Shown here: piece by piece, positions 42,985 to 64,000 of the stretch | Numbering within the stretch: the stretch's first letter is position 1 | Layout of the letters: each line of letters opens with the position of its first letter | Source of the DNA: Candidatus Moraniibacteriota bacterium | GTDB taxonomy: Bacteria; Patescibacteriota; Minisyncoccia; Moranbacterales; UBA1568 | NCBI GenBank assembly: GCA_030648835.1 | Contig: JAUSGT010000002.1 | Coordinates: 309,458 to 373,457, forward strand | Direction of reading: 5' to 3' | Length of the DNA stretch: 64,000 bases | The notes under the pieces: model-generated | Told to the model about the DNA's origin: nothing | What the model saw: only the letters and a program-made list of their open reading frames with translations | The model's database searches: none | Position numbers and translations under genes: made by a program

Positions 42985-43075
42985 GGAGAGGTGGCTGAGC
43001 GGCTGAAAGCGGCAGGTTGCTAACCTGTTATAGGACCTTAAAATCCTATCGAGGGTTCGAATCCCTCCCTCTCCG
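42985..43075 (+). tRNA. tRNA-Ser (anticodon GCU), long variable arm; left boundary of island
   Basis: ggagagg/cctctcc acceptor, anticodon stem cagg/cctg with loop ttgctaa, long extra arm. Confidence 0.75.
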
Positions 43076-43123
43076 CATCAAGCATTTAGTATCGAGAGAG
43101 ACCCGAGAGCCTCGAGTTAATGT

Positions 43124-43834
43124 ATGAAAAATCAAGCACAGCACAGCCCCCTGGCTTTAACAACAAATGGCCTAATTGTGCCAGTTGGTTTTCCCGTAGC
43201 TTCATACGAATCAATCCACAGTATTGTAAGCACTGCTCAAGCGAGTCATTTATTGTATGAACACTACGCGGGAGCTTGGAATGCTTTAGCTTATCGTTTT
43301 AGGGCATCAATGGATCATGGTGATGCCTTCGTACTTCTGTTCAATAGTAATGGTCCTACACCTCCACCAGAAGAGCGGTACATGCAAGAGAAAGCCCTAT
43401 TTGATTTCTTTAGTGCAGGATTTTCGGTTTTTGAATCAACATTTTATGGTTTATATGTGATAGGCGCCTTTTTATCGCCCACTCTATTTTCTCTCTCATC
43501 CCAAAAAGAGCAACAGCAAATTACTCCAAACCGAACTAGAGATACATTTACCCGCGCATTTCCTTCCGATCCAATTTTGAATACCTTTTCAGCGCTGTTT
43601 ATGGATCCCGAATACCAAAAGTGGCGGGAAATTCGAAATGTACTTACGCATCGTACTGCGCCAGGTCGTCGAATATATGTAAGTATCGGAAGTGATGATG
43701 CACCACCTACAGAATGGAAGCTTAATAATAGCGTACTTGATGCTTCAATTGTGACAAATGGGAAAAGTGAACTTTCCCGTCTCTTAACTTGTTTATTAGA
43801 GGGCAGTGCAAAGTTTGTGGCAACACGATTATAA
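43124..43834 (+). CDS. Hypothetical protein (island cargo)
   Basis: 236-aa ORF, no motif recognised. Confidence 0.4.
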   Translation: MKNQAQHSPLALTTNGLIVPVGFPVASYESIHSIVSTAQASHLLYEHYAGAWNALAYRFRASMDHGDAFVLLFNSNGPTPPPEERYMQEKALFDFFSAGFSVFESTFYGLYVIGAFLSPTLFSLSSQKEQQQITPNRTRDTFTRAFPSDPILNTFSALFMDPEYQKWREIRNVLTHRTAPGRRIYVSIGSDDAPPTEWKLNNSVLDASIVTNGKSELSRLLTCLLEGSAKFVATRL

Positions 43835-43848
43835 AAATATTGATAAGT

Positions 43849-44823
43849 ATGGCAAAACGTAACCTAATAAAAATTCCTCAAGTAATACTTGAACGTATTC
43901 GCACCTTTGATCAAGATGATATTGTGGTTGCTTGCGCTAAACTTCTCCGCCCGGAAGATATTTCGCGGTATGCTCATTTAGGGTTGGCGTTAGTGGATGG
44001 AAAATTGATCATCCCGTCACCTGCCATACCGAATCCAGACGCCGGTCGATATTCTAAAGCAAATGTTGAGGGGTATGAAAAGATTCGAAAGGATTTACCA
44101 AAAGTGCCTAAGGAATTTTCGTTTGAAGCACCGGATTGGGGAGATTGGTCGAATGGATCTCATACAGTTGCATGGACACGCAACGTTTACCGGAGAGACT
44201 TTTATCCTCCTAAGGAAGTTGAACTTTCGATTACGTTAGTTGAGGAAAAAAGCACAGGTTTTGTTGTGAAGTTTGCAATTGATCAAGTGATGAATCGAAG
44301 AACTGAAAACTTTGAACAAGAATTATTTTACAACCTTAATCTTCTCCAAGAAAATGTTGGTGCGGCAGATGTTTTCCGATATACGGCATCTTTAGCTGAT
44401 TACGCAGCTACAATACGAGTAGACTGGGTAATTTTACCACCCGGTACCGTTGATGAGGTAATACGCGGAATGCTCAAAGGGAAGAGTAAAATTACTCCTG
44501 CGCAAGAGGCTACTATGAAGGAAAGGGTGACGTTGATGTCTCGGCTTGAACCGGAAGTATATATTGCTGGTAGTGACGGTTTTCTGCGATACTTTGGTGC
44601 GAAATTTGGTGACGATTTTGTAGCCTTTGAAAATATTCGCTATGGCAATGCAATTTATGTTATGTACGATTCATGGGAAGAGCTAAGTAAAAAGAGTCGA
44701 ATTGACCTTTTAAGTGGTCCGCGTGACAGTTTCGATCGCATCGAACATAGGGATGGATGGGAAGAACGATTTAGTGCGATGGTTCAGGGATACCGTGATA
44801 AGAAAAAAAATAAGAAGTCTTGA
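43849..44823 (+). CDS. Hypothetical protein (island cargo)
   Basis: 324 aa from MAKRNLIKIPQ; no motif recognised. Confidence 0.4.
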   Translation: MAKRNLIKIPQVILERIRTFDQDDIVVACAKLLRPEDISRYAHLGLALVDGKLIIPSPAIPNPDAGRYSKANVEGYEKIRKDLPKVPKEFSFEAPDWGDWSNGSHTVAWTRNVYRRDFYPPKEVELSITLVEEKSTGFVVKFAIDQVMNRRTENFEQELFYNLNLLQENVGAADVFRYTASLADYAATIRVDWVILPPGTVDEVIRGMLKGKSKITPAQEATMKERVTLMSRLEPEVYIAGSDGFLRYFGAKFGDDFVAFENIRYGNAIYVMYDSWEELSKKSRIDLLSGPRDSFDRIEHRDGWEERFSAMVQGYRDKKKNKKS

Positions 44824-44897
44824 ATCTGGTCCGAGAGCCTCGAAATGAGCAATAAAAAAAACAGCAGTTTTTACCGCTGTTTTTTTATTGTTTAATT

Positions 44898-46247
44898 TTA
44901 TGACAAAGCAGTTTCATATTTCCTGAGGATTAATTTTTTCTCTTTTGTCAGAATGAGTCGACTTTTGAGACTAGCGAGCAATTCCCGCTTTTCAATCATC
45001 TTTCCCTCTTTGAGAATATATTTAGCATACGTGCGTATATCAAAGGCCTCTTTCTTATCGACATCACTTTCTTTGCCATCCATTCTAAGAACCGTATGTT
45101 GGAACTTGTTGTAGCGATCGACCTCTTCTTCAAATTGTTTCTTCAGTCCGATTTCATTGATATCAATCTCATCGATAACATGGAGCATTTGTAAGATGAG
45201 TGCCTCTTCCCGCAAATAACCAAGCTTGCAAGTAAGATCTCTTGAGCGAGTGCATCCGTAGTAGATATACTTTGTTGTGCTGCCGTTTTTCAGTTTCTTG
45301 TATTTTTCATCAGCCGTAATGCCTGATCCGCAGAGTTCGCAGGTGAGGAGTTTGGTGAAGGCGAACTCTTTGCTGTCCCGTGTTATGCGATCGCGCTTCA
45401 GTTGCTCTTGGGTAAGTTCGAAAAGCTCTTTAGTAATAATGGGTTCGTGCTTGCCTTCATACCATTTACCACTCCCTCTTGGAAATTCAAAGGGGCCAGA
45501 GTAGAAAGATGTCTGGAGTATGCGATAAATGTTCCCGAGTGAAAGATTTTTGTTACCTTTAGACTTGAAGTTGATATCAAATTTGAGCCAGTGATAAACT
45601 TTCCGCCCGCTCCAGCGTTCGTAAGCCACTCTTTCAAACATTTTTCTGATGACTGGTCCGCGCTCAGGATCAACAATGACTTGGCCTCTACGATCAGGCG
45701 AGGTGACATTGAGATACCCGGTTGGCGCGCACGTTGGCCACATGCCCATCTCACAGCGCATACGGAGACCACGCTTCACATTCACGCCTCGATTATCATT
45801 TTCCAGTTTCGCTTGTGAGCCGAGAATCATCAGAAGAAACTTCTCATTGGGAGAATTTGTGAAAGATTGTCCGAAGGTACGAATTTCTTTGAGCTGTTTG
45901 GAATCCATCAGATCCACCAGTGATCCGAGGTCACCAGCATTTCTGCTCAATCGATCCGGCGCCCAGGTAAGGATGCCATTGAATCGATCTTTCCTGATGT
46001 CCTCAATGAGTTCGTTGTATACTGGCCGTTGTCCTGAGTTTTTGGCTGAATGGCTTTCCCTTCGAATCTCTATAATCTCTAGTCCATCTCGCTCAGCGAT
46101 CTGGAGCATTTCCTTTACTTGAGAATCTATGGAAAGCACCTGTCTTTCCTCTGATTCACTGCTCTTTCGAGCGTAGAGGCAGTACCTCGTTTTTAGTGGT
46201 ATTTCTGCCTCTACAGCTATTCGATTGGCCGGACTGTGTATATTCAT
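44898..46247 (-). CDS. Large serine recombinase
   Basis: YARKSS catalytic Ser region, recombinase domain, Cys4 zinc ribbon (CELCGS...YYGCTRSRD), C-terminal coiled coil. Confidence 0.85.
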   Translation of the reverse strand: MNIHSPANRIAVEAEIPLKTRYCLYARKSSESEERQVLSIDSQVKEMLQIAERDGLEIIEIRRESHSAKNSGQRPVYNELIEDIRKDRFNGILTWAPDRLSRNAGDLGSLVDLMDSKQLKEIRTFGQSFTNSPNEKFLLMILGSQAKLENDNRGVNVKRGLRMRCEMGMWPTCAPTGYLNVTSPDRRGQVIVDPERGPVIRKMFERVAYERWSGRKVYHWLKFDINFKSKGNKNLSLGNIYRILQTSFYSGPFEFPRGSGKWYEGKHEPIITKELFELTQEQLKRDRITRDSKEFAFTKLLTCELCGSGITADEKYKKLKNGSTTKYIYYGCTRSRDLTCKLGYLREEALILQMLHVIDEIDINEIGLKKQFEEEVDRYNKFQHTVLRMDGKESDVDKKEAFDIRTYAKYILKEGKMIEKRELLASLKSRLILTKEKKLILRKYETALS

Positions 46248-46363
46248 AGGTTTGTTCTTTACCCAATGAATGACGCAGACCGATGAACTAGTCCAGACCC
46301 CTCAAAAAGCCCTCAAACTGCCTATAATTTCACATTTTTGACAGAATGGAAGTGCACAAACAA

Positions 46364-47830
46364 TCATATAATCCATATCCTTGGTATGATCGGCGGATCT
46401 TCCATAGTGCTTAAAACGACGTTTGAAAACGCATCAGCAAGATCATCGTGAGCCTCAACACCGAAATGCACGATCTGATTAATTAACTCCTCGCATCCTT
46501 CTCGTGGAAAGAGTATTTTTCCGCTCTTGACTGCATAGGCTGTCAGTATGAGTCGCGTGCGCTTATCTTGATTTCCTGGTCTCGTTGTTTTGACCTTTCT
46601 GATACCCTCGCTTTGCAACTGTTGCGGTAGAGACCTCTGATACGCAACATCTTCAATAACAAATATAGGATGTTTGTCATTCTCTTTAAAGTAGGAACTA
46701 TCTATTGCTTTGCACATGTCCACTGTTTCTGGGAAATCCATCTTCCTATTTACTATTTGTGGCAAGATATATACCCTCAAATCTTTCCCGTCGCCATACA
46801 GCATTGCCGGTACCATGGCCGTATAATCCGCTGTGTCCTTTTTTGAGATCGCCAGGTCAACCCCGATACGCACTTCAACGTGTTTGTCATACCCTTGGCA
46901 ATCCTTTTCGCCATGCGGTAACTCATCATAAAATTGGATCCATTCTCGGTGAATAGCTTGTTCTTCATCGGCAACGATGTGAAGCATATATTCTCGCTCC
47001 CAAGCAAATTCGTTTCCCGCTTTTCTTTTTTCACTTTCAATATCTTCCATAGAAAGATATTTTCCAGGCCATAAAATCTCCTGACCTCTTATGATGGGGA
47101 ATTCTTTGAATACGCCATCGATTCTTTCTTTTTCTACATCTTCCTTGATTCGCATAAGAAGCGAATCTTCGTGAAGCAGATTCCCAACGATAACCAGTCT
47201 CGTATTGCGATCTCCTGTAGGAATAACTTCTGCGGTCAGCCACTGATATGTCTTATTTCTTCCTTCGCGAGTCTTGGTAGAAGCCATGTCTTCCACATCG
47301 TCACAGATAATAAGGTCTGGTCGATGTTGATTGTGCCGCAAACCACGGATACTTTGTTCGCGAGAAGCAGCTGTAATTCGGGCATTGAGTTGAGAAAATA
47401 CAAGAGACGATGAACCCCATTCATCGGACTCCTCACGAAATGGCCCAAGATCATTCTTGAGAGTCGCGTTATTCTCTAGCTCTTGCCGGAGGTTCATCAT
47501 ATGTTGCTTCGCCTGTGATTGAGTCTGGCAAAGGATGAGCGCAAATTTTTTCTGTTGTCTGCCAAGAATCGCCCAGATTGGGTAGGAGGTGGTAAGTATC
47601 GTAGATTTTCCGCTGCCTCGGAAAGCGACAACGAAGAAATTACCAGCATTTTCGTTTTCCGAAAGATCAAACATCTCTGCTTGGAACTGAGCGGTCGGGT
47701 ATTTAACGTAATGGGCGAAGTAAAAATGGAAAAAGTGCCAGTGGCTTTCTTTAATGATTGCCACTCTGACTTTTCGATCCCTGATCATCGCCTCCGCTAA
47801 CCCCGGGGTTATTGTCCTTCTGTTGTTCAT
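46364..47830 (-). CDS. Phage terminase large subunit
   Basis: Walker A AFRGSGKST, Walker B ICDDVED, C-terminal RNaseH-like nuclease (IGVDLAISKKDTADYT). Confidence 0.8.
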   Translation of the reverse strand: MNNRRTITPGLAEAMIRDRKVRVAIIKESHWHFFHFYFAHYVKYPTAQFQAEMFDLSENENAGNFFVVAFRGSGKSTILTTSYPIWAILGRQQKKFALILCQTQSQAKQHMMNLRQELENNATLKNDLGPFREESDEWGSSSLVFSQLNARITAASREQSIRGLRHNQHRPDLIICDDVEDMASTKTREGRNKTYQWLTAEVIPTGDRNTRLVIVGNLLHEDSLLMRIKEDVEKERIDGVFKEFPIIRGQEILWPGKYLSMEDIESEKRKAGNEFAWEREYMLHIVADEEQAIHREWIQFYDELPHGEKDCQGYDKHVEVRIGVDLAISKKDTADYTAMVPAMLYGDGKDLRVYILPQIVNRKMDFPETVDMCKAIDSSYFKENDKHPIFVIEDVAYQRSLPQQLQSEGIRKVKTTRPGNQDKRTRLILTAYAVKSGKILFPREGCEELINQIVHFGVEAHDDLADAFSNVVLSTMEDPPIIPRIWII

Positions 47831-48221
47831 AAGATTGTGTCGTTATTTGATTTACTGAAGATAATCGCAGTGCTTCGCGAACGATCTCTTCCTGCTCTGG
47901 AGTAAGCACATCCTGAGACTGAATGTTGGCCGTTACTTCTACGCGCTCACGGAATTTCTGATGTCGGTGCCGGAGCCAGAAGCTGATCGCTTGATAACTC
48001 TTATCTCTGATAAGCGAAATGAGCTGAGATTCAGACATGTCGTTGATAAGCGCCTCGCCTTCGCTCAAAGCTTCTTCGAGTGATTGGCGAAACTTCTCGT
48101 CCTCATCTCGCCAGCGGTAGACGGAAGAACGCGCGACACCGACCTTTTCGCACGCCACCTGGATAATGGGAATCTTGCGGAGTTGCTCGAGAAATAAAAT
48201 CTTGGCTCGATCCTTTTTCAT
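47751..48221 (-). CDS. Terminase small subunit-like HTH protein
   Basis: N-terminal HTH VGVARSSVYRWRDE; immediately upstream of and overlapping terL. Confidence 0.5.
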   Translation of the reverse strand: MKKDRAKILFLEQLRKIPIIQVACEKVGVARSSVYRWRDEDEKFRQSLEEALSEGEALINDMSESQLISLIRDKSYQAISFWLRHRHQKFRERVEVTANIQSQDVLTPEQEEIVREALRLSSVNQITTQSYEQQKDNNPGVSGGDDQGSKSQSGNH

Positions 48222-49549
48222 AAGATTTTTTTCGGCTTTAATCCGGTTAATTTCGACCAGCGATTCAGAATCACCTCAGCGTAGATGGGGCTTTTTTCCA
48301 TCAGAAAACACTTGCGCTGCATTTTCACCGCTGCAATCAAAGTCGAACCGCTTCCACCATAGGGCTCAAAGATGAGATCGCCTCGCTTGGTCAGTATCTT
48401 GATGTAGGGAATAAGTATTTCCAGAGGTTTCGTGCCGAAAATAATTCCCTGTCCGGAAGATTTTTCATCGGCAGCGATATGCTCAATAAAATCAGTTGGG
48501 CAATACTTCTTGCCTTTGCCATAAGATTCCCAGTGGGGACTGCCCGAGGTTGCGAAAAGCGCCGTTTCGTATTCGGTTTGAAGCAATGCATCCGATTCTG
48601 GTTCAACGTTCAGCTCAACCTTGCCCGAAGTGCCGACCATTGCGAAGTCATGCTTATTGAAGAATTTATATTTGGCGCTAAATCCTTGAACGCGATTGGG
48701 GATATGCCAAATAATTGTATTTCTGTATTTCCAATGTTTTTCTAACTCATTCCAGATAGTCCGAAGATTTTTTGGATTCTCATAGACGATGATCGAAAAG
48801 TCTGGCTCCTGAATCTTGGCGACATTGTTCATCCAGAGTTCGGTAAAGTTGTCCGGGAGTGTTTCAGTGCCTAGATACACTCGATCGCGTTTTAACCCGA
48901 AGCCTTTGGTTACATTGCCGTTTTTCTTTTTCTTACCCTTGAGGTAATCCAGAAGATACGGAGGGTCCGTGAAGCACATATGCGCCTTATGTCCGTCAAA
49001 AAGTGTTAGAACATTTGCTTCAATTGTGGAATCCCCAATCATTACTCTGCTACCGTTTAGGTCGTATACTTCGCCGCTCTTTACTTTGATTTTTGTTATG
49101 TCTAACTTCGCCAGTTCTTTCTCTAAATCAAATACTTCTGGCGTTTCATCAATTCCAAAAATTTCGTCCATTTCTTCGCTCGAGAACCCAACGCTCCCGA
49201 GGAACTGTTCGCTGAAGTTGGAAAGAATATCCCAATCGAACTCGCCGGTGTTTTTATTCAGGCGAATATTCAGTTCCTTTTCTTTTTCCAAATCAGGAAT
49301 AGAAATGTATACCACTGGTACCTCTTTGATGCCGAGCTTCTTGGCCATAGCCAGGCGGAAGTGGCCACCGATGAGAATGTTCATTCGTTCCGATGCCGAA
49401 TTTACTACGAACGGGTCGACCAACCCGAATCGTTTGATACTTTCCTGAAGCTGGGTTTCTGCCTCCTTGCTCCATTTGCGCGGATTATATTCTGACGCCT
49501 TGAGGAGCGTGACGTCGACGTACTGCACCTGCAATTTTTCTTTTGGCAT
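48218..49549 (-). CDS. ParB-like nuclease domain fused to N4/N6 DNA methyltransferase (phage-type orphan MTase)
   Basis: N-terminal ParB/Srx motif (YNPRKWS...GGHFRL), MTase motif IV TDPPY and motif I FEPYGGSGST. Confidence 0.8.
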   Translation of the reverse strand: MPKEKLQVQYVDVTLLKASEYNPRKWSKEAETQLQESIKRFGLVDPFVVNSASERMNILIGGHFRLAMAKKLGIKEVPVVYISIPDLEKEKELNIRLNKNTGEFDWDILSNFSEQFLGSVGFSSEEMDEIFGIDETPEVFDLEKELAKLDITKIKVKSGEVYDLNGSRVMIGDSTIEANVLTLFDGHKAHMCFTDPPYLLDYLKGKKKKNGNVTKGFGLKRDRVYLGTETLPDNFTELWMNNVAKIQEPDFSIIVYENPKNLRTIWNELEKHWKYRNTIIWHIPNRVQGFSAKYKFFNKHDFAMVGTSGKVELNVEPESDALLQTEYETALFATSGSPHWESYGKGKKYCPTDFIEHIAADEKSSGQGIIFGTKPLEILIPYIKILTKRGDLIFEPYGGSGSTLIAAVKMQRKCFLMEKSPIYAEVILNRWSKLTGLKPKKIL

Positions 49550-49708: not shown

Positions 49709-50686
49709 TTAGTATGAATCTTCGTTTGGCTGAGGGTCTTCTTTGAATCCTTTCTTTTTCCGGGTAATAAACGTTTCCCCGCTACCCCTTAGACCAACGG
49801 GTGGTATAAGGATAAATCTAGAATGATAGTATCCATATTCTGAATAATTGAAAAACGGTTCTTCGTCTATACCGAATACCTGCCTCAGATGCTTTGATAG
49901 TATACTCTTAGTCGCATGAAGAGCATCCTTTTGTTTGAAATGTTCGTTACCAAGTAAATTATTTACCGTTGGTTGCTCACCTTTCCCCAGCTTAAAAGCC
50001 GAGAGTAAAAGGAGGAGAGTCCAGGCTTTGTTCGGAGTTTTATCTTTAGTGTTTGTTTTTACAAACCGAAGAACTTCTCGATCGAAACGACCGATAAATT
50101 TTTTCCCACATCGGATTTCTACCTCAATGTCGCTGGTAAATGCGAAGGTGATGTCTTCCCATCGGGTACCTGATGGCAATGTTACTATGGCTGTTCCTGA
50201 AAGGAGTTTTTGTGCTCTCTCCTTTGCTCGTTCCTCGACTTTCTCAAGAACTCTATTGGTTATAGTCTCAACGAGATCATCCTGGTGTAGGACTACTTCT
50301 CGCGTCTGTGGTCTTATCGGTCGAGTGGCGATAACTTCCGTTGGGATGTTGGGGACAAAGCGATTCCAAGAATCAACTATCTGACTGACGGATAGTACGA
50401 TCCGCTCCCGTTCTTTTTGAGCCCTTTGGATTTGTTCCTGCAGGTTGCCAAAGACTTCAAATGCATGTCTGTAGGTTTCGACAGCATAGTTCATCTGTTT
50501 TGCTAGGTTTTGCAAAGCCCCCGCTTGTTGCTGGAAGAACTGGTGGAGCAGAACCCGTTGTCTGAGAAACGGCTCTATATTGAAGGCAATCTCTTTTTGG
50601 ATGGCTAAAACATTAAACATAGGCACTAAGGCCATTTGTTGTGTGCTTTTTCCTTTTGGATTGGACGCTTTACTTTTGACTTTCAT
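49709..50686 (-). CDS. Hypothetical protein
   Basis: 325-aa ORF divergent from defence operon. Confidence 0.4.
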   Translation of the reverse strand: MKVKSKASNPKGKSTQQMALVPMFNVLAIQKEIAFNIEPFLRQRVLLHQFFQQQAGALQNLAKQMNYAVETYRHAFEVFGNLQEQIQRAQKERERIVLSVSQIVDSWNRFVPNIPTEVIATRPIRPQTREVVLHQDDLVETITNRVLEKVEERAKERAQKLLSGTAIVTLPSGTRWEDITFAFTSDIEVEIRCGKKFIGRFDREVLRFVKTNTKDKTPNKAWTLLLLLSAFKLGKGEQPTVNNLLGNEHFKQKDALHATKSILSKHLRQVFGIDEEPFFNYSEYGYYHSRFILIPPVGLRGSGETFITRKKKGFKEDPQPNEDSY

Positions 50687-50715
50687 AGTTGTAAACTAAT
50701 AGTAACTCATATCTT

Positions 50716-50916
50716 ATGAAGAATCAAACGAAGAAAATCGAGGAATACCCGGAGATTTTGACGCTCCAGGAAGCTTGTGAGGTTTTGAATTGCCACCCAA
50801 ATACGCTTCGGAATTGGGATAACAAAGGCATCCTCAAGGCAATTCGGTTTGGCACGAGGAAGGACAGAAGGTACAAAAAGGAGGATGTGTTGAAAGTTAT
50901 CAATAAAGGCCACTAA
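50716..50916 (+). CDS. Excisionase/MerR-family HTH DNA-binding protein (possible controller or Xis)
   Basis: 66 aa; LTLQEACEVLNCHPNTLRNWDNKGIL HTH; 3 nt upstream of the SNF2 gene. Confidence 0.6.
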   Translation: MKNQTKKIEEYPEILTLQEACEVLNCHPNTLRNWDNKGILKAIRFGTRKDRRYKKEDVLKVINKGH

Positions 50917-50919
50917 AGT

Positions 50920-53862: not shown

Positions 53863-53866
53863 AAAT

Positions 53867-55570: not shown

Positions 55571-55575
55571 ATACT

Positions 55576-58401: not shown

Positions 58402-58467
58402 ACTGAAGGCTTGATACTTTAGGGGCGAAGATGATAATTGAAAGAGTAATAGATTTGATTAAAAAAT

Positions 58468-58830
58468 ATGGAAATTGATGATAAAAAAATTGGACAAATA
58501 CTTGGAAATTTAGAATCTGCGATTGGAAAAATTATTAGAATAGATATGTGGTTGCCTGAAGCTATAGATTATGCTATAAATGGCCATCGTGGAACTTTGG
58601 ATCGAGCGGATATTGATAGAGCGACCAGGGAGAAAAAGGAGGATAATAAAATTCAAATAGAAATTGACAGTTTGCGTAGTCAAGTTGAAGAATCACAAAA
58701 ACAAACCCAAGAAATAAAGAAGCAGACGCGCTACTTATTGTATGCATTCATTATCGCTATTTTTAGTTTTTCATTAAATGCCATTTTGCAAATAAGCCCG
58801 AATCTGTTTGGCCTACTAAATACAAAATAA
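58468..58830 (+). CDS. Hypothetical coiled-coil protein with C-terminal TM helix
   Basis: 120-aa ORF in AT-rich defence block. Confidence 0.35.
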   Translation: MEIDDKKIGQILGNLESAIGKIIRIDMWLPEAIDYAINGHRGTLDRADIDRATREKKEDNKIQIEIDSLRSQVEESQKQTQEIKKQTRYLLYAFIIAIFSFSLNAILQISPNLFGLLNTK

Positions 58831-58913
58831 AGAAGATGCCAACTTGTTTATAAACTCTACGATCTCACCCCAGAAGAAATTGAAATTATAGAAAATTCAA
58901 GTAAGAAATAATC

Positions 58914-59516
58914 ATGCTTTCACTTGATCAAAAAGAGATAGAAGCCAAGCTGGATACATTTAATTGGAATTTTAAAGTTGGGGATAATATAAAACACAAC
59001 ATTGAAGAAGTGTTTTTCTTGTACAAAATAAAAGAAGAAAATTGTTCATATACTAGGGAAAAACAATTTATAAATAAACATATATCAATAACCCTAGTTG
59101 CTATTATTGAAGGAATTTTACACGACTTTGTTGTAAGACTAAGCGAAGCCACAAACCACTTTCCGTTAATCATTGATGATAAGAAAAAGAAGGATATCAA
59201 AAAATATATTTCAGAGCAAAAAGTACCTTTTAAGTATAAAAAACTTGAGGGTAGAATACTCAGAGTCAAAAACTATTCATTCGCTCAGATTCTCAAGTTG
59301 CTTCAAAACTTCGAGCTGTTAGAGTCAAAAAATAGCCCAATCTACAATACGTTAGAGGCCGCCACTCATTTTAGAAATCGCATCCATATTTATAATTGGT
59401 TTAATAACTTTGAGACCGACGAGAGGGATGTTTTTACGGATAAACGGTTAGAAGTTCTCGAGTGGTTAGTTATTTACATCTTAACTACAATGGAGGCCAA
59501 GTACTCACGGCCTTGA
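58914..59516 (+). CDS. Hypothetical protein with HEPN-like R-N-x-I-H motif (paralog of 59766-60389)
   Basis: TLEAATHFRNRIHIYNW aligns with EIAEEIRIARNKIHVSG of the next protein. Confidence 0.4.
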   Translation: MLSLDQKEIEAKLDTFNWNFKVGDNIKHNIEEVFFLYKIKEENCSYTREKQFINKHISITLVAIIEGILHDFVVRLSEATNHFPLIIDDKKKKDIKKYISEQKVPFKYKKLEGRILRVKNYSFAQILKLLQNFELLESKNSPIYNTLEAATHFRNRIHIYNWFNNFETDERDVFTDKRLEVLEWLVIYILTTMEAKYSRP

Positions 59517-59765
59517 GAAGAGGGTTGTGAGGGAGTATCTGTTCAAAGAAGGTTTGTGGATTATGAATTTGGACTAGCAACCTAGTGGAATGGCGTATTT
59601 TTTGCTACAATAAAAACATGTCAAAACAGATTAGAAAAAAGAGAGAAGATACTAAGATTGGGACCATAGAAAAAAAATATGATCGTGATTTTGGTGTGCG
59701 ATCAGATAAGAAACTAGGAAACTATCTTAAGGAACAAGGGTTTCCATCGTTAAGTAAGCTTCTCG

Positions 59766-60389
59766 ATGAAACAAAGCGAGGAAAAAAGTGATGAGGTTAT
59801 TGATGAGTTGATGCCAAAAGAAACCTTTGAGAAAAGGTTCTCTTTTATTACAAACGATACTCTAAAAAAGAATATCGCGATTGCTTTTGAATATATTGTT
59901 TTTCTAATTGATACTGCAGGAAAGGAAAATCATAAGCAATTGATTAGAAGTTCTCTTTATAAGGATGCGACCGTTTATACAGGGACTATTGTTGAGGCCT
60001 GTCTTTGTCATGTACTTATGAAATATTTCTCAGTAAACAAATTACAAAAAACAAAAGTTTTGACTCCAGAATGGAAAGAAGAAGCACAAGGGTTTATACA
60101 CGAGTTTAGTAAAAAAAAGAGGATCCGTTATGTTATTGAGCATATAAGCTACGAAGATATTAGAGATTCATCAAACTTTATCGAAATAAATCGTGCTTGT
60201 CTTCGTGGCAGGATACTTTCTAAAAAAGAATACGAAATTGCAGAAGAAATAAGAATAGCTAGGAATAAAATTCACGTATCTGGATTAAAGGAAATAGATA
60301 ATTCATACAGCAAAGAGAAGCTTGATGAAATCTTTTCTAAAGCAAATAAAATTATTAGAAAAGTAGAAAAGAAACTTTTGAAGCTTTAG
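59766..60389 (+). CDS. Hypothetical protein with HEPN-like Rx6H motif (RIARNKIH)
   Basis: Motif as above; possibly fused by frameshift to upstream 68-aa ORF 59585-59791. Confidence 0.4.
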   Translation: MKQSEEKSDEVIDELMPKETFEKRFSFITNDTLKKNIAIAFEYIVFLIDTAGKENHKQLIRSSLYKDATVYTGTIVEACLCHVLMKYFSVNKLQKTKVLTPEWKEEAQGFIHEFSKKKRIRYVIEHISYEDIRDSSNFIEINRACLRGRILSKKEYEIAEEIRIARNKIHVSGLKEIDNSYSKEKLDEIFSKANKIIRKVEKKLLKL

Positions 60390-60673
60390 GGGGTTTTTTT
60401 TCAGAGAGTAAAAAAATAGTCAGGTACCATTTTGGTAGGAATTTTCTCAGCCCTGGTTCGTTTTTAGTGGCTTGATTTATTCTTCAAAAAGAGTAGGATA
60501 CAAGCACAACTGAATAGTGAATTATCTAGAGAGTGGCGAGAGCACTGGCTCACTGACCCACCGGCAACCCTTGGCAACAAGAAGGTGCCCCATCCAGCCC
60601 TGGAAAGGGAAAGATATCGGTCGATTCTTTCTCTGTCTCTGGACAGAGTTTTTGATTTTCTAACGATAATACT

Positions 60674-61099
60674 ATGAAAAATATCTACTATAAAGCAAAA
60701 GAAGAAGATGAGACTCCTCTCCATATGTCTGGATTTGTTCCGTTCCGTTTGGAACTTAAAAATTTCCCAAAATATGACAATTTTCCATACAATATTTTGT
60801 TCGCAGGAGATGCCAACATAGACGGAGTGGACATGTCCGGCAGTGCTCTGTATTTTCCCGATTTTTCAACGTTTCAGGAAAGTGAGAAAAAACAGTCTAT
60901 GACTTATTTTAACCAATATAGTCGCGAATGGACGGTGGTGATTGAGTATGACAAGCAAAGGGGTTCGTGGGAAGGATCAAAATATTACAAAGGTGAATTC
61001 AAAGGCGGTGGCGGTGGTACAGAGTGGAGAATGGCTTTTGCACATCTGACTATGGCTGGATTGGCGAATGGTGAAAGGGTGGAATTTGAAAAGATTTGA
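60674..61099 (+). CDS. Hypothetical protein
   Basis: 141-aa ORF; stop overlaps next start (atga). Confidence 0.35.
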   Translation: MKNIYYKAKEEDETPLHMSGFVPFRLELKNFPKYDNFPYNILFAGDANIDGVDMSGSALYFPDFSTFQESEKKQSMTYFNQYSREWTVVIEYDKQRGSWEGSKYYKGEFKGGGGGTEWRMAFAHLTMAGLANGERVEFEKI

Positions 61100-61542
61100 A
61101 AAGTTTTTTTAACGCTAAAATCATGAAAAATATGGACAACAATCAAAACAGGGAATCGCTTTCCCAGGTTAAGGTAAAAGAAGTAGCTTCGCGCTACATT
61201 AGCGGATGTGATAAGTGGTATAGAATGTATGCTGGCATTGCTTCGAATCTAGAAAGATATGAAAGCGGTATTATGTATCTGCGGATAGAAAATACCGAGA
61301 AAACAAAACCTTCAAGCTATGAAACGGCCGTTGAGTTCGCTCGCAAATGGGTGGGATACAATGCAGAATTAAAAGACGCGAAAGGGTTCGTTGTTTCGTT
61401 CTATACCAGCGGGGCGACTGGTTTTGTATTGAATGGTGCCACTGATAAAGGTATTGCTAGCGATTTGGTTCAGCAATTCATAAGGGCTTCGCAGCAAGAA
61501 AAAAAACTAGTGAATATTTTTTCTGGAGAGTTGAAAGTTTGA
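61096..61542 (+). CDS. Hypothetical protein
   Basis: 148-aa ORF translationally coupled to previous. Confidence 0.35.
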   Translation: MKSFFNAKIMKNMDNNQNRESLSQVKVKEVASRYISGCDKWYRMYAGIASNLERYESGIMYLRIENTEKTKPSSYETAVEFARKWVGYNAELKDAKGFVVSFYTSGATGFVLNGATDKGIASDLVQQFIRASQQEKKLVNIFSGELKV

Positions 61543-61589
61543 AAGAAAAGATGCAAAGCAGACAGTAATATCTTTTTTACCAAGTTCTA

Positions 61590-62930
61590 TTAGTCGAGCT
61601 CTGTTGAAAAAGTTGGTATCCCAACTCTCTTTCGACTTGTTTCACCTTTGAAGAGGTGATTTTTTCTTTCTGGTACTCTACCTCGTTCTCCTGAGTGCTG
61701 AGTAAATTGGTGTGCAAGAAAGGAAGCGCCAAAGTGAATAGTGTGTTTCCCATACTTGGCTCTTACTTCATCGATTTTTTCATAAAGTCTGCGAAAACCG
61801 TCAATTTTCAGTGAAGACCCAAACAAATCTGGCTGCAGATTCGGTTCTTGAAGTTCAATCAAGCCGATCATAGTTGCTCGATAGAGTACCCCTTTTTTAA
61901 ACAAATTATCAAACTCAGGTTTTAATAAATCAATCAGTTCATGAGCGAAGTTTGTCGGTCGAGAAAGCTTTACTTCAGTCGAATGGTGTTCGTAGTTCTG
62001 GGTGCGGAGGAGAATATATACTTTTTTGGCTTCCAGTTTATAGCCTCTCGCTTTCATGCAAGCGGATTCGATGTTCTTACAGAGCTGAGCAAAGACAAAA
62101 CGAGGATCATTGGATGGAGGAGTGAACGTCTTCATCTTCTGGATAGAATAGTGATCTGCGCGAGGCTCTATCTGTAGTGGCATGACGCTTTCTCCTCTGA
62201 GCTCTGACCAGATTTCTTGGATCGGTTTTGGAAAATATTTTTGTACCCACTCCTTATCTCTGCGGACGAAATCCAAACAGGTATGAACTCCGTATTTTTG
62301 AAGCAGTGAAGATGTTTGCGGTCCAATACCCCAGGGCTTACCAATAGGCAGATTTTCTAGATAAAGATGAATCTTTCTGTTGGGGATAGCTGTCAGGCCA
62401 TTGGGCTTATTCCATTTAGAACCAAGCTTAGCTAGTACCTTCGTAGAAGCAAGGCCGATAGAGAAGGTAAAACCAAGTTCTTTGGTCAGATCATCTTGGA
62501 GCTTCTCTGCAATCTTCGTATAGCTCATGTGAAACGGCCTCTGCCAGCCTGTTAGGTCGGCAAAGCACTCGTCTATCCCATATTCTTCTACGTCTGGCGT
62601 ATAACGCCTCACAATATCAAAGAAACGTTTGGAAAGAAGGGAATAAGTCTCATAGTCAGAAGGGAGAATAATAGCTTCAGGGCAGAGCTTTTTAATCTCA
62701 GAGAGTCTCATGGCTCTCGTTACTCCCTTGGCTTTAGCTTCGTAGCTCATGGAAGCGGCGATGCCTCGTTCTTTGCCGGTGATGACTGGCTTACCTCGCA
62801 GTTCTGGGTTTCTGGCTTGTTCACAAGAGGCAAAGAAAGCATCTCCGTCGATATGGAGGATGGCGCGGGGAAACTTACCAAGAGCAATAGGGGCAGACAT
62901 ACTAGTACTTTCTGATGATAGCTGTGACAA
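61590..62930 (-). CDS. Y-family DNA polymerase (DinB/UmuC-like)
   Basis: ILHIDGDAFFASCE and GIDECFADLTG catalytic motifs. Confidence 0.85.
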   Translation of the reverse strand: MSQLSSESTSMSAPIALGKFPRAILHIDGDAFFASCEQARNPELRGKPVITGKERGIAASMSYEAKAKGVTRAMRLSEIKKLCPEAIILPSDYETYSLLSKRFFDIVRRYTPDVEEYGIDECFADLTGWQRPFHMSYTKIAEKLQDDLTKELGFTFSIGLASTKVLAKLGSKWNKPNGLTAIPNRKIHLYLENLPIGKPWGIGPQTSSLLQKYGVHTCLDFVRRDKEWVQKYFPKPIQEIWSELRGESVMPLQIEPRADHYSIQKMKTFTPPSNDPRFVFAQLCKNIESACMKARGYKLEAKKVYILLRTQNYEHHSTEVKLSRPTNFAHELIDLLKPEFDNLFKKGVLYRATMIGLIELQEPNLQPDLFGSSLKIDGFRRLYEKIDEVRAKYGKHTIHFGASFLAHQFTQHSGERGRVPERKNHLFKGETSRKRVGIPTFSTELD

Positions 62931-63477
62931 TAGCCTCTATTCGCAATTCTTCTTTGGGATAGATAGTAGGAAACTTCGGATTGGCTGGCACCAAGACAAT
63001 TTTTTTACCGGGAAGAATATGGTAATATTTCATCGTCCATTTTCCATCGACACAGGCAATGACAATGTCACCATGTTTTGGTTGTTTTCCTCGTTCTACA
63101 AGAGCAGTGTCTCCGGGACGAATACCAGCATTGATCATTGATTGGCCCTTCACTTCGAGCATATAGGTGGCTTCCCGTCTTTGGATAAGCCATTCATCAA
63201 GAGTCATGGTATCTAGGAGCTCTTCTTCAGCCGGGGAAGGAAAACCAGCTTCAACAAAACCAAGCTTCTTTACGCTGGTGAAAAGGTTAGTAGGAGTTAA
63301 CTTTCCTTTTTTGTCTCGTCTCAAAACACCTTCATCCACGAGAGCGTCTACGAGCTCTTTTGTTTTCCTCATGGATTTTGTACGAATTATTCTATCTCTA
63401 ATTTCTCGTACTGATGGCATACGCTTGTTATCCTCGTAAAATGCCTGAATTTTTTGATAGAGTATAATAGAATCCAT
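62902..63477 (-). CDS. LexA-like repressor paralog (HTH + S24 peptidase), co-operonic with Y-family polymerase
   Basis: MPSVREIRDRI HTH similar to chromosomal lexA; GQSM Ser and MKYY Lys; overlaps polymerase gene start. Confidence 0.75.
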   Translation of the reverse strand: MDSIILYQKIQAFYEDNKRMPSVREIRDRIIRTKSMRKTKELVDALVDEGVLRRDKKGKLTPTNLFTSVKKLGFVEAGFPSPAEEELLDTMTLDEWLIQRREATYMLEVKGQSMINAGIRPGDTALVERGKQPKHGDIVIACVDGKWTMKYYHILPGKKIVLVPANPKFPTIYPKEELRIEAIVTAIIRKY

Positions 63478-63516
63478 AGGTATAAAGGGGCGTTAATAGT
63501 ACGATATACACTATAT

Positions 63517-63532
63517 GGGAACAAACGTTCCC
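63517..63532. promoter_or_regulatory. Cheo-type SOS box GGGAACAAACGTTCCC upstream of the lexA-like/polymerase operon
   Basis: Perfect GAAC-N4-GTTC palindrome 40 bp upstream of the lexA-like start. Confidence 0.6.
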
Positions 63533-63603
63533 AAGTCAAGTAAAATAACCATATGTGCGGACGTTATCTAAAAAGAGTATGCTTTGTGTAATATAAGAAA
63601 TCT

Positions 63604-64000
63604 ATGATTGCCACGATTGATATAAAAAGCAGACCATTGAAACTTGCCTTTTTGGTAGACCCTAAAAAGCAAAGAGAAATTTTAACTGCTATAGAACTTA
63701 GTTGTTCTTTATGGGGTGGTGCTTTTAACCCTATAATTCCTTTCTATACAAGTGTTCCAGAAAATTGGGATAAAATGCCTTACTCTAAAAAAAGAAAAGA
63801 AAAGCCTAGCAATATAGTTAATGGGTATATTAAAACTTTTGATCCGGACGTATTGGTGATTTGTAGCGATAGAGCTCTTCCTAAAGAAGTAGATACTTTT
63901 GGGCTTCGTGTGATCAAATCCGATGAATTATGGAAAAGTTTTTTGAGTAACGGAGAAGGTCAGCCTGATTATGGAATAGGGATTTTTGAAATCCTAAATG
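63604..64000 (+). CDS. Hypothetical protein, 5' part only (runs off window)
   Basis: Open frame from ATG at 63604 to window end in AT-rich DNA. Confidence 0.3.
   Translation, partial: MIATIDIKSRPLKLAFLVDPKKQREILTAIELSCSLWGGAFNPIIPFYTSVPENWDKMPYSKKRKEKPSNIVNGYIKTFDPDVLVICSDRALPKEVDTFGLRVIKSDELWKSFLSNGEGQPDYGIGIFEILN

What the first reader, a model, noticed from the sequence alone, without database searches (positions are those of the whole stretch)
42985..64000. About 20-kb island next to tRNA-Ser(GCU): large serine recombinase + terminase small/large + ParB-MTase but no structural phage genes
Immediately 3' of tRNA-Ser the gene content switches to mobile-element functions. These are a large serine recombinase, TerS-like HTH, TerL with ATPase and nuclease domains, and a ParB-domain N4/N6 methyltransferase. 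They are followed by a compositionally distinct AT-rich defence block (about 35% vs about 48% GC) and then an SOS-polymerase cassette. No capsid, portal or tail genes are seen. This suggests a decayed prophage or a satellite-like element that retains packaging/recognition genes and carries defence cargo. The two unknown genes between the tRNA and the recombinase (43124-44823) occupy a classic hotspot position and may be another defence or toxin pair.
Basis: partly seen in the sequence, partly recalled or inferred. Interest (0 to 1): 0.6.

Follow-up and report, generated by a model that had tools for sequence, protein, structure and literature searches.

The report
Capsid-less terminase island in CPR bacterium
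Next to a serine tRNA gene of an ultra-small (CPR, Moranbacteria) bacterium sits a mobile island that carries its own complete DNA-packaging enzyme but no virus shell genes; it belongs to a large, previously undescribed family of such islands that ferry anti-phage defence genes, and it most likely spreads by stealing the capsids of a helper phage.

Summary
tRNA-Ser(GCU) at 42985-43076 is followed by a large serine recombinase, TerL, TerS and a ParB-methyltransferase. Then come an AT-rich block (HTH_17, a DrmD-like SNF2 helicase, Type III Mod/Res), small unknown genes and an S24/UmuC pair. No structural genes occur. The foreign DNA runs past the window to at least 67.2 kb, so the island is at least 24 kb.

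It is not a decayed prophage. The module MTase-TerS-TerL-(cargo)-serine recombinase recurs in over 100 metagenomic loci, down to 38% TerL identity. Core genes are under strong purifying selection (TerL dN/dS 0.05) and TerL catalytic motifs are invariant. Island terminases form one clade about 40% identical to the nearest true phage terminases. Four relatives delimited by direct repeats are 15-17 kb and lack head, tail or lysis genes.

A 13-bp dyad-symmetric core (CCGAGAGCCTCGA) is the att core. It flanks the closest relative's whole element at the same tRNA. In the window it brackets a two-gene cassette inserted exactly at the junction. A syntenic Moraniibacteriota genome lacks the island.

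Best reading: a new capsid-less family of satellite-like integrative elements in CPR bacteria that carry their own terminase and defence cargo. Integration, conservation and cargo are shown. Packaging into helper capsids is inferred.

The parts
42985..43076 (+). tRNA-Ser(GCU); its 3' flank is the integration site
   Evidence: ARAGORN and Rfam tRNA at 60.2 bits. The same tRNA borders the closest relative L177/L184.
43103..43115 (+). att core copy 1 (attL side), CCGAGAGCCTCGA, with dyad symmetry CGAG-AGC-CTCG; lies 26 nt after the tRNA
   Evidence: Exact 13-mer found twice in the window; 0 of 100 shuffles gave two copies. Homology to L177 stops exactly at its outer edge.
43124..43834 (+). Cassette gene 1, 236 aa, unknown function; conserved partner of gene 2
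   Evidence: No Pfam, PHROG, PADLOC or PDB hit. It is 50% identical to the partner gene in Sphingomonas mesophila.
43849..44823 (+). Cassette gene 2, 324 aa (the ORF is open from 43789), unknown function; a widespread family with no Pfam annotation
   Evidence: 965 homologues at 60-75% identity across phyla. The pair is conserved next to Type I R-M or DUF499 genes. The AF2 model has pLDDT 82 but Foldseek finds no PDB match.
44831..44852 (+). att core copy 2 (internal junction) plus the conserved element-side arm AATGAGCAA
   Evidence: The arm plus core is identical to the uninterrupted junction in L177.
44843..44897 (.). Terminator-like hairpin after the recombinase gene
   Evidence: Inverted repeat I10, visible in the sequence.
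44898..46247 (-). Large serine recombinase (integrase), 449 aa
   Evidence: Pfam Resolvase, Recombinase and Zn_ribbon_recom; PHROG 95 integrase at 3e-59. It is 95% identical to L177's, which uses the same att site; dN/dS 0.020.
46364..47830 (-). Terminase large subunit, 488 aa (474 aa by another gene call)
   Evidence: PHROG 38 at 1e-76; Terminase_6C. Walker A/B and nuclease acidic residues are invariant in 82 relatives; dN/dS 0.049.
47751..48221 (-). Terminase small subunit, 156 aa
   Evidence: PHROG TerS families, best 1.7e-12. Conserved upstream of TerL in the family; dN/dS 0.12.
48218..49549 (-). ParB_N-N6/N4 DNA methyltransferase fusion, 443 aa
   Evidence: Pfam and PHROG 498. Present in 78 of 89 family loci directly upstream of TerS.
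49709..50686 (-). First gene of the core operon, 303-325 aa, fast-evolving, function unknown
   Evidence: No family hits. Only 3 close homologues exist. Other elements have variable genes at this position.
50716..50916 (+). HTH_17 (excisionase/MerR-type) small DNA-binding protein, 66 aa, heading the divergent cargo operon; candidate regulator or recombination directionality factor
   Evidence: ORF read. It is 97% and 89% identical to genes that carry a precomputed Pfam HTH_17 hit in L176 and L177.
50920..53862 (+). SNF2-family helicase, 980 aa (DrmD-like)
   Evidence: Pfam SNF2-rel_dom and Helicase_C. PADLOC DrmD at 4.5e-204. It is 90% identical in L176 and 75% in L089.
53867..55570 (+). Type III R-M methyltransferase (Mod), 567 aa
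   Evidence: Pfam N6_N4_Mtase; PADLOC MTase_III at 2.7e-133.
55576..58401 (+). Type III restriction enzyme (Res), 941 aa, with a TnsA-like endonuclease C-terminus
   Evidence: Pfam ResIII and Tn7_TnsA-like_N; PADLOC REase_III at 8.3e-122.
58468..60389 (+). Three small AT-rich unknown genes (120, 200 and 207 aa); the last has a weak HEPN_Swt1 match
   Evidence: GC 0.31-0.33.
60519..60648 (+). SAM-I riboswitch aptamer plus intrinsic terminator
   Evidence: Rfam RF00162 at 53.8 bits (gathering score 44.4). Terminator at 60631-60648.
60674..61542 (+). Two unknown genes (141 and 148 aa) downstream of the riboswitch
   Evidence: No family or PDB hits. The AF2 single-sequence model was unusable.
61590..63477 (-). 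S24 peptidase (LexA/UmuD-like, 191 aa, with an N-terminal DNA-binding-like region) plus a Y-family polymerase (UmuC-like)
   Evidence: Pfam Peptidase_S24, IMS, IMS_C. The S24 protein is 25% identical to the LexA-like repressor of L084.
63604..64000 (+). Start of an 804-aa unknown gene that runs off the window; AT-rich foreign DNA continues to at least position 67203
   Evidence: Logan contig L001. GC is 0.33-0.36. No Pfam, PDB or phage hit.

Best explanation
The region is an integrated mobile element of a large, conserved family found (wherever the host is named) in CPR/Patescibacteria. The family's fixed core is one operon: a variable small gene, a ParB-DNA methyltransferase, TerS, TerL, and a large serine recombinase downstream. 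It faces a divergently transcribed regulator (an HTH_17 protein here, a LexA/CI-like S24 repressor in many relatives). Variable cargo sits on both sides of the core.

SHOWN. The recombinase end abuts a 13-bp dyad-symmetric core 26 nt past tRNA-Ser(GCU). That core flanks the entire 16.65-kb element of the closest relative at the same tRNA. A syntenic genome lacks the island. Recombinase identity tracks the integration site, while the terminase module recombines independently. Core genes are under strong purifying selection and TerL has intact ATPase and nuclease motifs. No member has head, tail or lysis genes. Cargo is mostly defence: here SNF2 + Type III R-M; elsewhere Type I/IIG/III R-M, CBASS, TIR/Thoeris-like proteins, GmrSD, and also DGRs. 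In the window a recombinase-less two-gene cassette flanked by the same core has accreted between the tRNA and the element, in the manner of a cis-mobilisable element.

INFERRED. On induction (SOS or helper infection, acting through the S24 or HTH_17 regulators) the recombinase excises the element. The methyltransferase marks its DNA. Its own TerS/TerL recognise it and package it, probably headful and as concatemers given the 15-17 kb size, into procapsids supplied by a helper phage. That helper would belong to the related lineage whose TerL is about 40% identical and is followed by a 700-aa portal and an HK97-type capsid gene. In short, it would be a phage satellite that brings its own motor but no shell.
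For: Family and architecture. The core recurs in 9 viral loci, 80 metagenome loci and further viral loci. SerRec lies downstream on the same strand in 37 of 51 loci with at least 3 kb of room, at gaps of 41-9296 bp. The plan is kept at 38% TerL identity. The TerL clade has 449 representative clusters at E<=1e-30.

Function retained. dN/dS is 0.049 for TerL, 0.12 for TerS and 0.020 for SerRec, and 121 TerL positions are invariant, including Walker A/B and the nuclease Asp/Glu residues.

Single origin. 91 of 93 island-type TerLs fall in one phage-free clade. The nearest phage-type relatives are 39-41% identical and are followed by portal and major capsid genes.

No structural genes. This holds for the window and its extension and for the delimited relatives L084 (15.3 kb), L102 (15.1 kb), L170 (15.3 kb) and L184 (16.65 kb).

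att site.. L084 has an analogous 13-nt dyad repeat at both ends.

Mobility. A near-identical core (TerL 89%, SNF2 90%, HTH_17 97%) sits at a different chromosomal site in another Moranbacteria MAG. Different tRNAs (Glu, Asp, Ser-CGA, Trp) border other members. An empty syntenic site exists in L003, and a different insert in L004.

Host. A Candidatus Moranbacteria MAG; another member is labelled Patescibacteria.

Literature. Among described satellite families only cfPICI carry terL, always with capsid and connector genes (PMC10085698). No paper in the library links satellites with CPR.
Against: No helper phage, excised circle, concatemer or virion-associated copy was observed. None of the fetched contigs has terminal overlaps. 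No replication module was recognised in any member, although most satellites replicate; only a Dda/RecD-like helicase was seen, in L170. The window element's far boundary was not reached and no third core copy lies within 67.2 kb. This copy may therefore be larger than its relatives, composite, or fixed in place. Several core-adjacent genes are unknown and fast-evolving. A cryptic function, including a very divergent structural one, cannot be strictly excluded for small proteins. Host assignment of most family members is unknown.
Confidence: 0.5

Rival explanations
1. Integrative defence island whose terminase is not a transfer device. TerS/TerL (with the ParB-methyltransferase) would act against infecting phages, for example by competing for or blocking their procapsids or cutting their concatemers. 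The island itself would spread by other routes such as natural transformation or vesicles.
For: Cargo is overwhelmingly defence-related. No replication module or helper was found. CPR genomes commonly carry competence genes; dprA was seen next to L176. Interference with helper packaging is a known satellite activity (established knowledge, not tested here).
Against: A complete, catalytically intact TerS+TerL pair has been kept with an integrase and a self-methylase across more than 60% sequence divergence. That is what a self-packaging element needs. Interference alone usually needs only a small protein or a TerS. No known defence system consists of TerS+TerL, and PADLOC gave no hit to these genes as a system (one search covers only the MTase).
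Confidence: 0.2
2. In-situ packaging element (GTA-like or lateral-transduction-like). The terminase starts packaging from the integrated element and drives adjacent chromosomal DNA into capsids encoded elsewhere in the genome or by a phage.
For: TerS->TerL->recombinase->att all point outward toward the flanking chromosome. The closest cultured-phage TerL relatives (about 25% identity) include transposable Mu-like phages that package from the integrated state. The Terminase_6C family is typical of headful packaging.
Against: The 25% identity says little about mechanism. The elements carry a dedicated recombinase with conserved att cores, occupy different sites and are mosaic, all of which indicates that they excise and move as units. 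No capsid genes are linked to them.
Confidence: 0.1
3. Complete prophage whose structural genes lie further right, beyond the reachable sequence.
For: The right boundary is unresolved and AT-rich foreign DNA continues past 67.2 kb.
Against: In four delimited relatives the whole element is 15-17 kb with no structural gene. In phages with the nearest terminases the portal immediately follows TerL, whereas here the recombinase does. The 3.2 kb past the window holds an 804-aa protein with no phage homologue.
Confidence: 0.05
4. Decayed (cryptic) prophage remnant that happens to retain packaging genes.
For: Phage-derived genes are present without a virion module.
Against: The same gene set and order recur in over 100 loci, with dN/dS of 0.02-0.12 and invariant catalytic residues. 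The TerL clade is monophyletic and distinct from phages. Complete elements are flanked by intact att repeats.
Confidence: 0.05

Closest known systems
Capsid-forming PICIs (cfPICI)
   Same: Chromosomally integrated, phage-dependent islands that encode their own TerS and TerL and carry accessory or defence cargo (PMC10085698).
   Different: cfPICIs also encode a major capsid protein, portal, protease and head-tail adaptor/connector, and steal only tails. None of these is present here or in the complete relatives. The integrase here is a large serine recombinase, the host is CPR, and no primase-replicase was found.
Classical PICIs/SaPIs and PICMIs/VEIMEs
   Same: Small (about 5-19 kb) integrative satellites with an integrase, a repressor or AlpA-type regulator and often TerS. 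Some package concatemers into helper capsids (as summarised in PMC12822802). They carry defence cargo in hotspots.
   Different: They rely on the helper's TerL. This family keeps its own TerL together with a ParB-methyltransferase. No pri-rep or capsid-size-redirection genes were detected.
PLE of Vibrio cholerae
   Same: About 18 kb, integrated by a large serine recombinase, with no capsid genes; a satellite with anti-phage effect (from established knowledge and PMC10085698).
   Different: PLE has no TerL, has its own replication initiator, and is restricted to V. cholerae/ICP1. No sequence relationship was found here.
Dehalococcoides ssrA genomic islands (serine-recombinase integrative mobilisable elements)
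   Same: A large serine recombinase sits next to attL, and the integration module includes a ParB-domain protein and a DNA-modification gene. They insert at the 3' end of a tRNA-like gene with a short (20-bp) direct repeat. They form tandem arrays that include recombinase-less 'cis-mobilisable' islands (accretion). Their transfer route is unknown and possibly phage-borne (PMC3146451).
   Different: They have no terminase genes, their cargo is reductive dehalogenases, and they use a second small recombinase (DsiA).
Type III restriction-modification / DISARM
   Same: The cargo block contains Mod and Res with strong Type III HMM matches, plus an SNF2 helicase whose best PADLOC match is DISARM DrmD.
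   Different: No DrmA, DrmB (DUF1998) or DrmC is present, so it is not DISARM. It is a Type III R-M accompanied by an SNF2 helicase and a small HTH_17 gene. This combination recurs as cargo in L176, L089 and L182.

Membership tests
Complete tailed prophage | Portal, major capsid, tail and lysis genes within the integrated element | tested here: not met
   Pfam and PHROGs scans of the window ORFs found none. Complete relatives of 15-17 kb have none. Positive control: portal and MCP were found at once in the phage fragment L195. The window's own far end was not reached.
Decayed/cryptic prophage | Relaxed selection, disrupted genes, idiosyncratic gene content | tested here: not met
   dN/dS is 0.02-0.12, 121 TerL positions are invariant, and the architecture is the same in over 100 loci.
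Phage satellite (general) | Integrase plus att sites; a mobile, delimited element smaller than a phage | tested here: met
   Large serine recombinase; 13-bp core at both ends of L184 (16.65 kb); L084, L102 and L170 are about 15 kb; different insertion sites; an empty site in L003.
Phage satellite (general) | Lacks virion genes and depends on a helper phage for particles | not testable with these tools
   Absence of virion genes is shown. Helper dependence and encapsidation need experiments or virome read data.
cfPICI | TerS and TerL present | tested here: met
cfPICI | Own capsid, portal, protease and head-tail adaptor/connector genes | tested here: not met
   None found in the window or in delimited relatives.
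PICI/SaPI | Primase-replicase module and reliance on the helper's TerL | tested here: not met
   No pri-rep domain in any scanned protein; the element's own TerL is present.
Large-serine-recombinase integrative element | Resolvase catalytic domain + Recombinase domain + zinc ribbon; gene adjacent to one att end | tested here: met
   Pfam. The stop codon lies 54 nt from core copy 2. A 95%-identical recombinase uses the same tRNA-Ser(GCU) core in L177/L184.
Large-serine-recombinase integrative element | Recombination activity on attP x attB carrying the 13-bp core | not testable with these tools
   Needs an in vitro or in vivo recombination assay.
Cis-mobilisable element (accretion cassette) | Flanked by the att sites of a neighbouring integrative element and has no recombinase of its own | tested here: met
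   Exact 13-mers at 43103 and 44831. L177 shows the uninterrupted junction. The two genes have no recombinase domain.
DISARM | DrmA helicase + DrmB (DUF1998), with DrmD/DrmMI (class 1) or DrmE/DrmMII (class 2) and usually DrmC | tested here: not met
   Only a DrmD-like SNF2 protein is present. Its neighbours score as Type III Mod and Res.
Type III restriction-modification | Adjacent Mod (N6/N4 MTase) and Res (ResIII helicase-nuclease) genes | tested here: met
   PADLOC MTase_III at 2.7e-133 and REase_III at 8.3e-122. Activity was not tested.

The most novel reading that the evidence does not exclude
These are the first phage satellites of CPR/Patescibacteria and a new satellite class. They are capsid-less islands that carry a complete terminase (TerS+TerL) and a self-methylase, and they integrate with a large serine recombinase. 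They would hijack only the empty procapsids and tails of a related helper phage lineage, and they would be a main vehicle for moving defence systems and diversity-generating retroelements between these ultra-small, host-dependent bacteria.
Probability: 0.4. Interest if true: 0.8.

Novelty: new variant of a known kind. Interest (0 to 1): 0.66.

Why it matters
Phage biology and horizontal gene transfer in CPR bacteria are almost unknown, and no satellite has been described for them. This family is abundant: 449 TerL clusters at 50% identity and hundreds of metagenomic loci. It is old and cleanly defined. It has a fixed four-gene core, a readable att core and variable slots loaded with defence systems (Type I/IIG/III R-M, CBASS, TIR proteins, GmrSD, SNF2 helicases) and DGRs.

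If it is a satellite, it fills a gap in the known strategies. PICIs bring only TerS, and cfPICIs bring a terminase plus a capsid. This family would bring the whole motor and no shell. It would also explain how DGRs and defence genes spread among CPR lineages that lack conjugation machinery.

In practical terms, it supplies a family of compact large serine integrases with naturally varied, tRNA-proximal target sites. It also gives a marker (the island TerL clade) that virus-prediction pipelines currently mislabel as viral contigs.

Tried and rejected
(1) The genome-collection scan with the flanking Tag protein found no close relative (best 56-60% identity). It was salvaged later, because L003/L004 turned out to be syntenic.

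(2) The window's own NCBI contig (635,596 bp) could not be reached with the look-up of encoding contigs. Only a Logan contig adding 3.2 kb was available, so the right boundary stays open.

(3) The search for a third att core or a displaced tRNA fragment through 67.2 kb found only chance 3-mismatch hits inside genes.

(4) A systematic search for flanking direct repeats gave mostly chance-level 12-16-mers. Only L084, L102, L170 (and later L184) are convincing. L109, L143 and L175 are merely candidates.

(5) No circular or terminally redundant contig was found among about 170 fetched loci.

(6) The six loci without a recombinase within 10 kb after TerL were suspected to be phages. Their genes are cargo (kinase-, epimerase-, helicase- and HsdR-like), not structural.

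(7) DISARM was considered for the SNF2 block and rejected, because DrmA and DrmB are absent.

(9) The 325-aa core-operon protein has only three homologues, too few for a useful model.

(10) The single-sequence model of the riboswitch-controlled 141-aa protein has pLDDT 42 and is unusable.

(11) The 19-nt inverted match between 43160-43178 and 50624-50642 (I3) was judged chance-level among 18 similar pairs.

(12) Paul et al. 2017 on CPR DGRs could not be read because it is not held. I therefore cannot exclude that it mentions this neighbourhood.

Full report
SOURCE AND OBSERVATION. The window comes from a 635,596-bp contig of a Candidatus Moranbacteria MAG (CPR/Patescibacteria). Its ValS, RecG, recombinase, TerL and SNF2 proteins are MDO8566064, -078, -099, -100 and -105. 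The left 43 kb is ordinary chromosome: PurL/M-like genes, ValS, TsaD, RecG, an ABC transporter, an RRM protein and Tag. ARAGORN and Rfam confirm tRNA-Ser(GCU) at 42985-43076.

To its right lie two unknown genes, then four minus-strand genes. These are a large serine recombinase (44898-46247), TerL (46364-47830), TerS (47751-48221) and a ParB_N-N6/N4 methyltransferase (48218-49549), followed by an unknown 303-325-aa gene. Divergently transcribed from these are a 66-aa HTH_17 gene (50716-50916; the 84-aa minus-strand ORF there is spurious), a DrmD-like SNF2 helicase, and a Type III Mod and Res. After them come small AT-rich unknown genes and an S24-peptidase/Y-family polymerase pair.

GC falls from 0.476 in the host flank to 0.433 over the core and 0.378 over the cargo block. 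No structural phage gene was detected. A Logan contig extends the sequence to position 67203, and the DNA there is still AT-rich (GC 0.33-0.36). It encodes an 804-aa protein with no Pfam, PDB or phage match. The island is thus at least 24 kb and its right end was not reached.

A CONSERVED FAMILY, NOT A ONE-OFF. A TerL scan of IMG/VR returned nine contigs at 48-60% identity. All keep MTase-TerS-TerL, and all with enough sequence after TerL have a recombinase orthologue (50-69%) downstream on the same strand. The metagenome scan found 351 relatives. The best 80 (62-84% identity) show the same plan, many on chromosomal contigs of up to 746 kb, and some come from 0.1-um groundwater filtrates.

Of 51 loci with at least 3 kb after TerL, 37 show the recombinase. 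The gap ranges from 41 to 9296 bp (median 1252), which indicates a variable cargo slot. Clustering 1137 ORFs from 89 loci gave 593 clusters. Only TerL (87 loci), the MTase (78), TerS and the recombinase are widespread. An S24/LexA-like repressor gene lies divergently upstream in 16 loci. A member with only 38% TerL identity keeps the same order: small gene, ParB-MTase, TerS, TerL, recombinase, with divergent SNF2/Eco57I cargo. An exhaustive search found 449 representative clusters (50% identity) at E<=1e-30.

FUNCTIONAL, NOT DECAYING. Between the window and its near relatives, dN/dS is 0.049 for TerL, 0.12 for TerS and 0.020 for the recombinase, with synonymous sites near saturation. Across 82 TerLs, 121 positions are invariant. 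They include Walker A (AFRGSGKS), Walker B (DLIICDDVED) and the nuclease acidic residues D325, E393 and D462/D463/D466.

In a neighbour-joining tree of 162 TerLs, 91 of 93 island-type sequences form one clade free of phage-type sequences. The nearest phage-type terminases are 39-41% identical. In those contigs TerL is followed at once by a roughly 700-aa portal and an HK97-type capsid gene, with no MTase or recombinase. This also serves as a positive control that structural genes are detectable when present. Cultured-phage TerLs reach only about 25% identity.

COMPLETE ELEMENTS ARE 15-17 KB AND CAPSID-LESS.
- L084 is bounded by a 13-nt dyad-symmetric direct repeat (GACCCTTGTCGAG) 15.3 kb apart. 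The left copy lies just past ftsA-ftsZ-trxB and tRNA-Ser(CGA), and the right copy lies between the recombinase and tRNA-Glu. It contains an 8xMP membrane protein, two ThsB-like TIR proteins, a LexA-like repressor, the core, a DGR, Type III Res/Mod and the recombinase.
- L102 (15.1 kb; about 226 bp of direct repeat; next to tRNA-Trp) and L170 (15.3 kb; 26-nt repeat) follow the same plan. Their cargo includes a SAVED-HNH effector, a Dda/RecD-like helicase and a DGR. PHROGs found no structural protein.
- L184/L177 is described below.

Recurrent cargo across the family includes Type I, IIG and III R-M, CBASS, GmrSD, SNase and Sie-like proteins. DGRs are also frequent: the RT occurs in 16 loci and bAvd in 14.

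THE ATT SITE AND THE TWO-GENE CASSETTE. The window holds two exact copies of CCGAGAGCCTCGA, at 43103-43115 and 44831-44843 (0 of 100 shuffles gave two). The first lies 26 nt after the tRNA. The second lies 54 nt from the recombinase stop codon, across a terminator hairpin.

L177/L184 has a recombinase 95% identical in protein. It shows the uninterrupted junction: terminator, TTGCTCATT, the 13-mer, GTC..., then the tRNA-Ser(GCU) 3' end. Homology to the window stops exactly at the outer edge of the 13-mer. At the far end of that element a second core copy (CCGAGAGCCTCAA) sits in the gap after the last cargo gene. Beyond it GC rises, and host genes follow (a membrane protein, Tag, GH130). This delimits a 16.65-kb element carrying Type I R-M, S24 and CBASS. 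The 13-mer is therefore the att core.

In the window, the 1,715-bp cassette (236-aa and 324-aa genes) is inserted precisely between two copies of this core and has no recombinase of its own. This is the arrangement described as accretion of a cis-mobilisable element in other integrative elements, including the serine-recombinase ssrA islands of Dehalococcoides (PMC3146451).

The cassette's gene pair is itself widespread. The 324-aa protein has 965 homologues at 60-75% identity across phyla. The pair occurs as a unit after a Type I R-M operon in Sphingomonas mesophila, and after a DUF499 gene near a relaxase in another contig. A confident model (pLDDT 82) has no PDB match. Its function remains unknown; a defence or toxin role is plausible from context only.

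MOBILITY AND THE EMPTY SITE. L176, from another Moranbacteria MAG, has TerL 89%, SNF2 90% and HTH_17 97% identical to the window's. Its recombinase is only 76% identical, and it sits at a different site near pyrE/pyrF/dprA/topA. L177 has the 95%-identical recombinase at the same tRNA, but its TerL is only 59% identical. The elements are therefore mosaic, and recombinase identity tracks site choice. Other members abut tRNA-Glu, -Asp, -Ser(CGA) and -Trp.

L003 is a 767-kb Moraniibacteriota contig that is syntenic with the window's left flank: ABC ATPase 60%, a 257-aa gene 58%, RRM 94%, Tag 55%, and tRNA-Ser(GCU). After the tRNA it runs directly into normal-GC genes that have no match in window positions 43-67 kb. 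L004 has a different AT-rich insert of about 4.7 kb at the same place, followed by the same 249-aa and 826/833-aa flank genes. It also predicts what the window's right flank should look like. No homologue of those flank genes occurs by 67.2 kb.

MECHANISM. The following is shown from sequence:
- a site-specifically integrated, delimited, mosaic element family;
- a conserved and selected TerS/TerL/MTase/recombinase core;
- divergent regulators (HTH_17 or an S24 repressor);
- defence-rich variable cargo;
- no virion genes.

The rest is inferred. After induction the recombinase excises the element, the MTase modifies its DNA, and its own terminase packages it into procapsids of a helper phage from the related TerL/portal lineage. 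Packaging is probably headful (Terminase_6C family) and of concatemers, given the element's size.

I put this at about 0.5. The main reservations are that no helper, excised form or particle evidence exists, and that no replication module was recognised. The rivals are as follows:
- a defence island whose terminase interferes with phage packaging rather than moving the island (0.2);
- a GTA-like or lateral-transduction-like in-situ packaging element (0.1);
- a complete prophage with structural genes further right (0.05);
- a decayed prophage (0.05).

COMPARISON WITH KNOWN SYSTEMS. Among described satellite families only cfPICI carry terL, and always with capsid, portal and connector genes (PMC10085698). 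PICIs, PICMIs and PLE lack TerL. PLE shares the large serine recombinase and the size, but nothing else. The Dehalococcoides ssrA islands share the integration logic: a serine recombinase next to attL, a ParB-domain protein, a DNA-modification gene, a short direct repeat at a tRNA-like gene and tandem accretion. They have no terminase.

The SNF2 block is a Type III R-M with an accessory SNF2 helicase, not DISARM. No paper in the searchable library links satellites or terminase-bearing islands with CPR bacteria. The key CPR DGR paper could not be read.

VERDICT. Interest is 0.66. The family is abundant, cleanly defined, apparently undescribed, and directly testable with virome and read-level data, but its transfer mechanism is still an inference.

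Noticed in passing
window 60519-60648 (+), with genes at 60674-61099 and 61096-61542: A complete SAM-I riboswitch sits inside the AT-rich cargo. It comprises an aptamer (53.8 bits, gathering score 44.4; GC 0.55) and an intrinsic terminator. It controls two unknown, unrelated small genes (141 and 148 aa), just downstream of a SAM-dependent Type III R-M system. It was not found in any related element.
   Followed up: partly
L084 9579-12490 (VR 10398-10523, TR 10898-11026); RT in 16 and bAvd in 14 of 89 family loci: Diversity-generating retroelements are recurrent cargo, usually between TerL and the recombinase (after the recombinase in L170). In L084 the target gene directly follows TerL, and all 24 VR/TR substitutions lie at template adenines. 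These elements may be vehicles for the horizontal DGR transfer reported in CPR.
   Followed up: partly
window 43124-44823; L178 4307-5972; L179 4283-5969: The two-gene cassette (about 230 aa + about 323 aa, no Pfam family) is a widespread unit. It is 60-75% identical across distant phyla and lies next to Type I R-M or DUF499 genes in integrase- or relaxase-bearing islands. It is a candidate uncharacterised defence or toxin pair, and its fold has no PDB match.
   Followed up: partly
L184 16865-17458 versus window 42362-42874: In the closest relative at the same tRNA-Ser(GCU), tag lies on the far side of the element, downstream of the tRNA. In the window and in L003/L004, tag lies upstream of the tRNA and divergent from it. 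So tag neighbours the tRNA in all of them but on opposite sides, which suggests a local rearrangement around this site.
   Followed up: no
L004 4543-8908: A different AT-rich insert of about 4.7 kb (seven small genes, GC 0.32-0.40, no recombinase detected) occupies the same tRNA-Ser(GCU) 3' flank in another Moraniibacteriota MAG. The site is therefore a general insertion hotspot.
   Followed up: no
IMGVR_UViG_3300033402_000781 (L090 = 1-20406, L088 = 27012-39337): One 39-kb contig carries two copies of the core cassette 28 kb apart. Each has a second, distant (about 24% identical) 537-aa serine recombinase on the opposite strand about 7 kb upstream of TerL. This could be tandem elements or a two-recombinase subtype.
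   Followed up: no
P0143, P0144, P0146, P0147, P0149, P0150: Several close TerL representatives (48-55% identical) are 690-760 aa long. They carry an extra segment of about 220 aa at the C- or N-terminus whose nature is unknown.
   Followed up: no
window 31000-33000 and 35000-36000: Further low-GC patches (0.39-0.40) lie next to tRNA-Arg(CCG) 30860-30932, tRNA-Ser(UGA) 32873-32962 and tRNA-Arg(GCG) 33657-33730. They may be other small insertions.
   Followed up: no
IMG/VR contigs L083-L091 and L185-L193: Chromosomal islands of this family are catalogued as viral genomes (UViGs), presumably because of TerL/TerS, even though flanking genes such as ftsZ and trxB are cellular. This is a source of false 'CPR virus' calls.
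   Followed up: partly
window 59766-60389: The 207-aa AT-rich gene has a weak Swt1-like HEPN match (E = 0.004, below the Pfam threshold). Together with the preceding 200-aa gene it could be a small toxin-type module.
   Followed up: no
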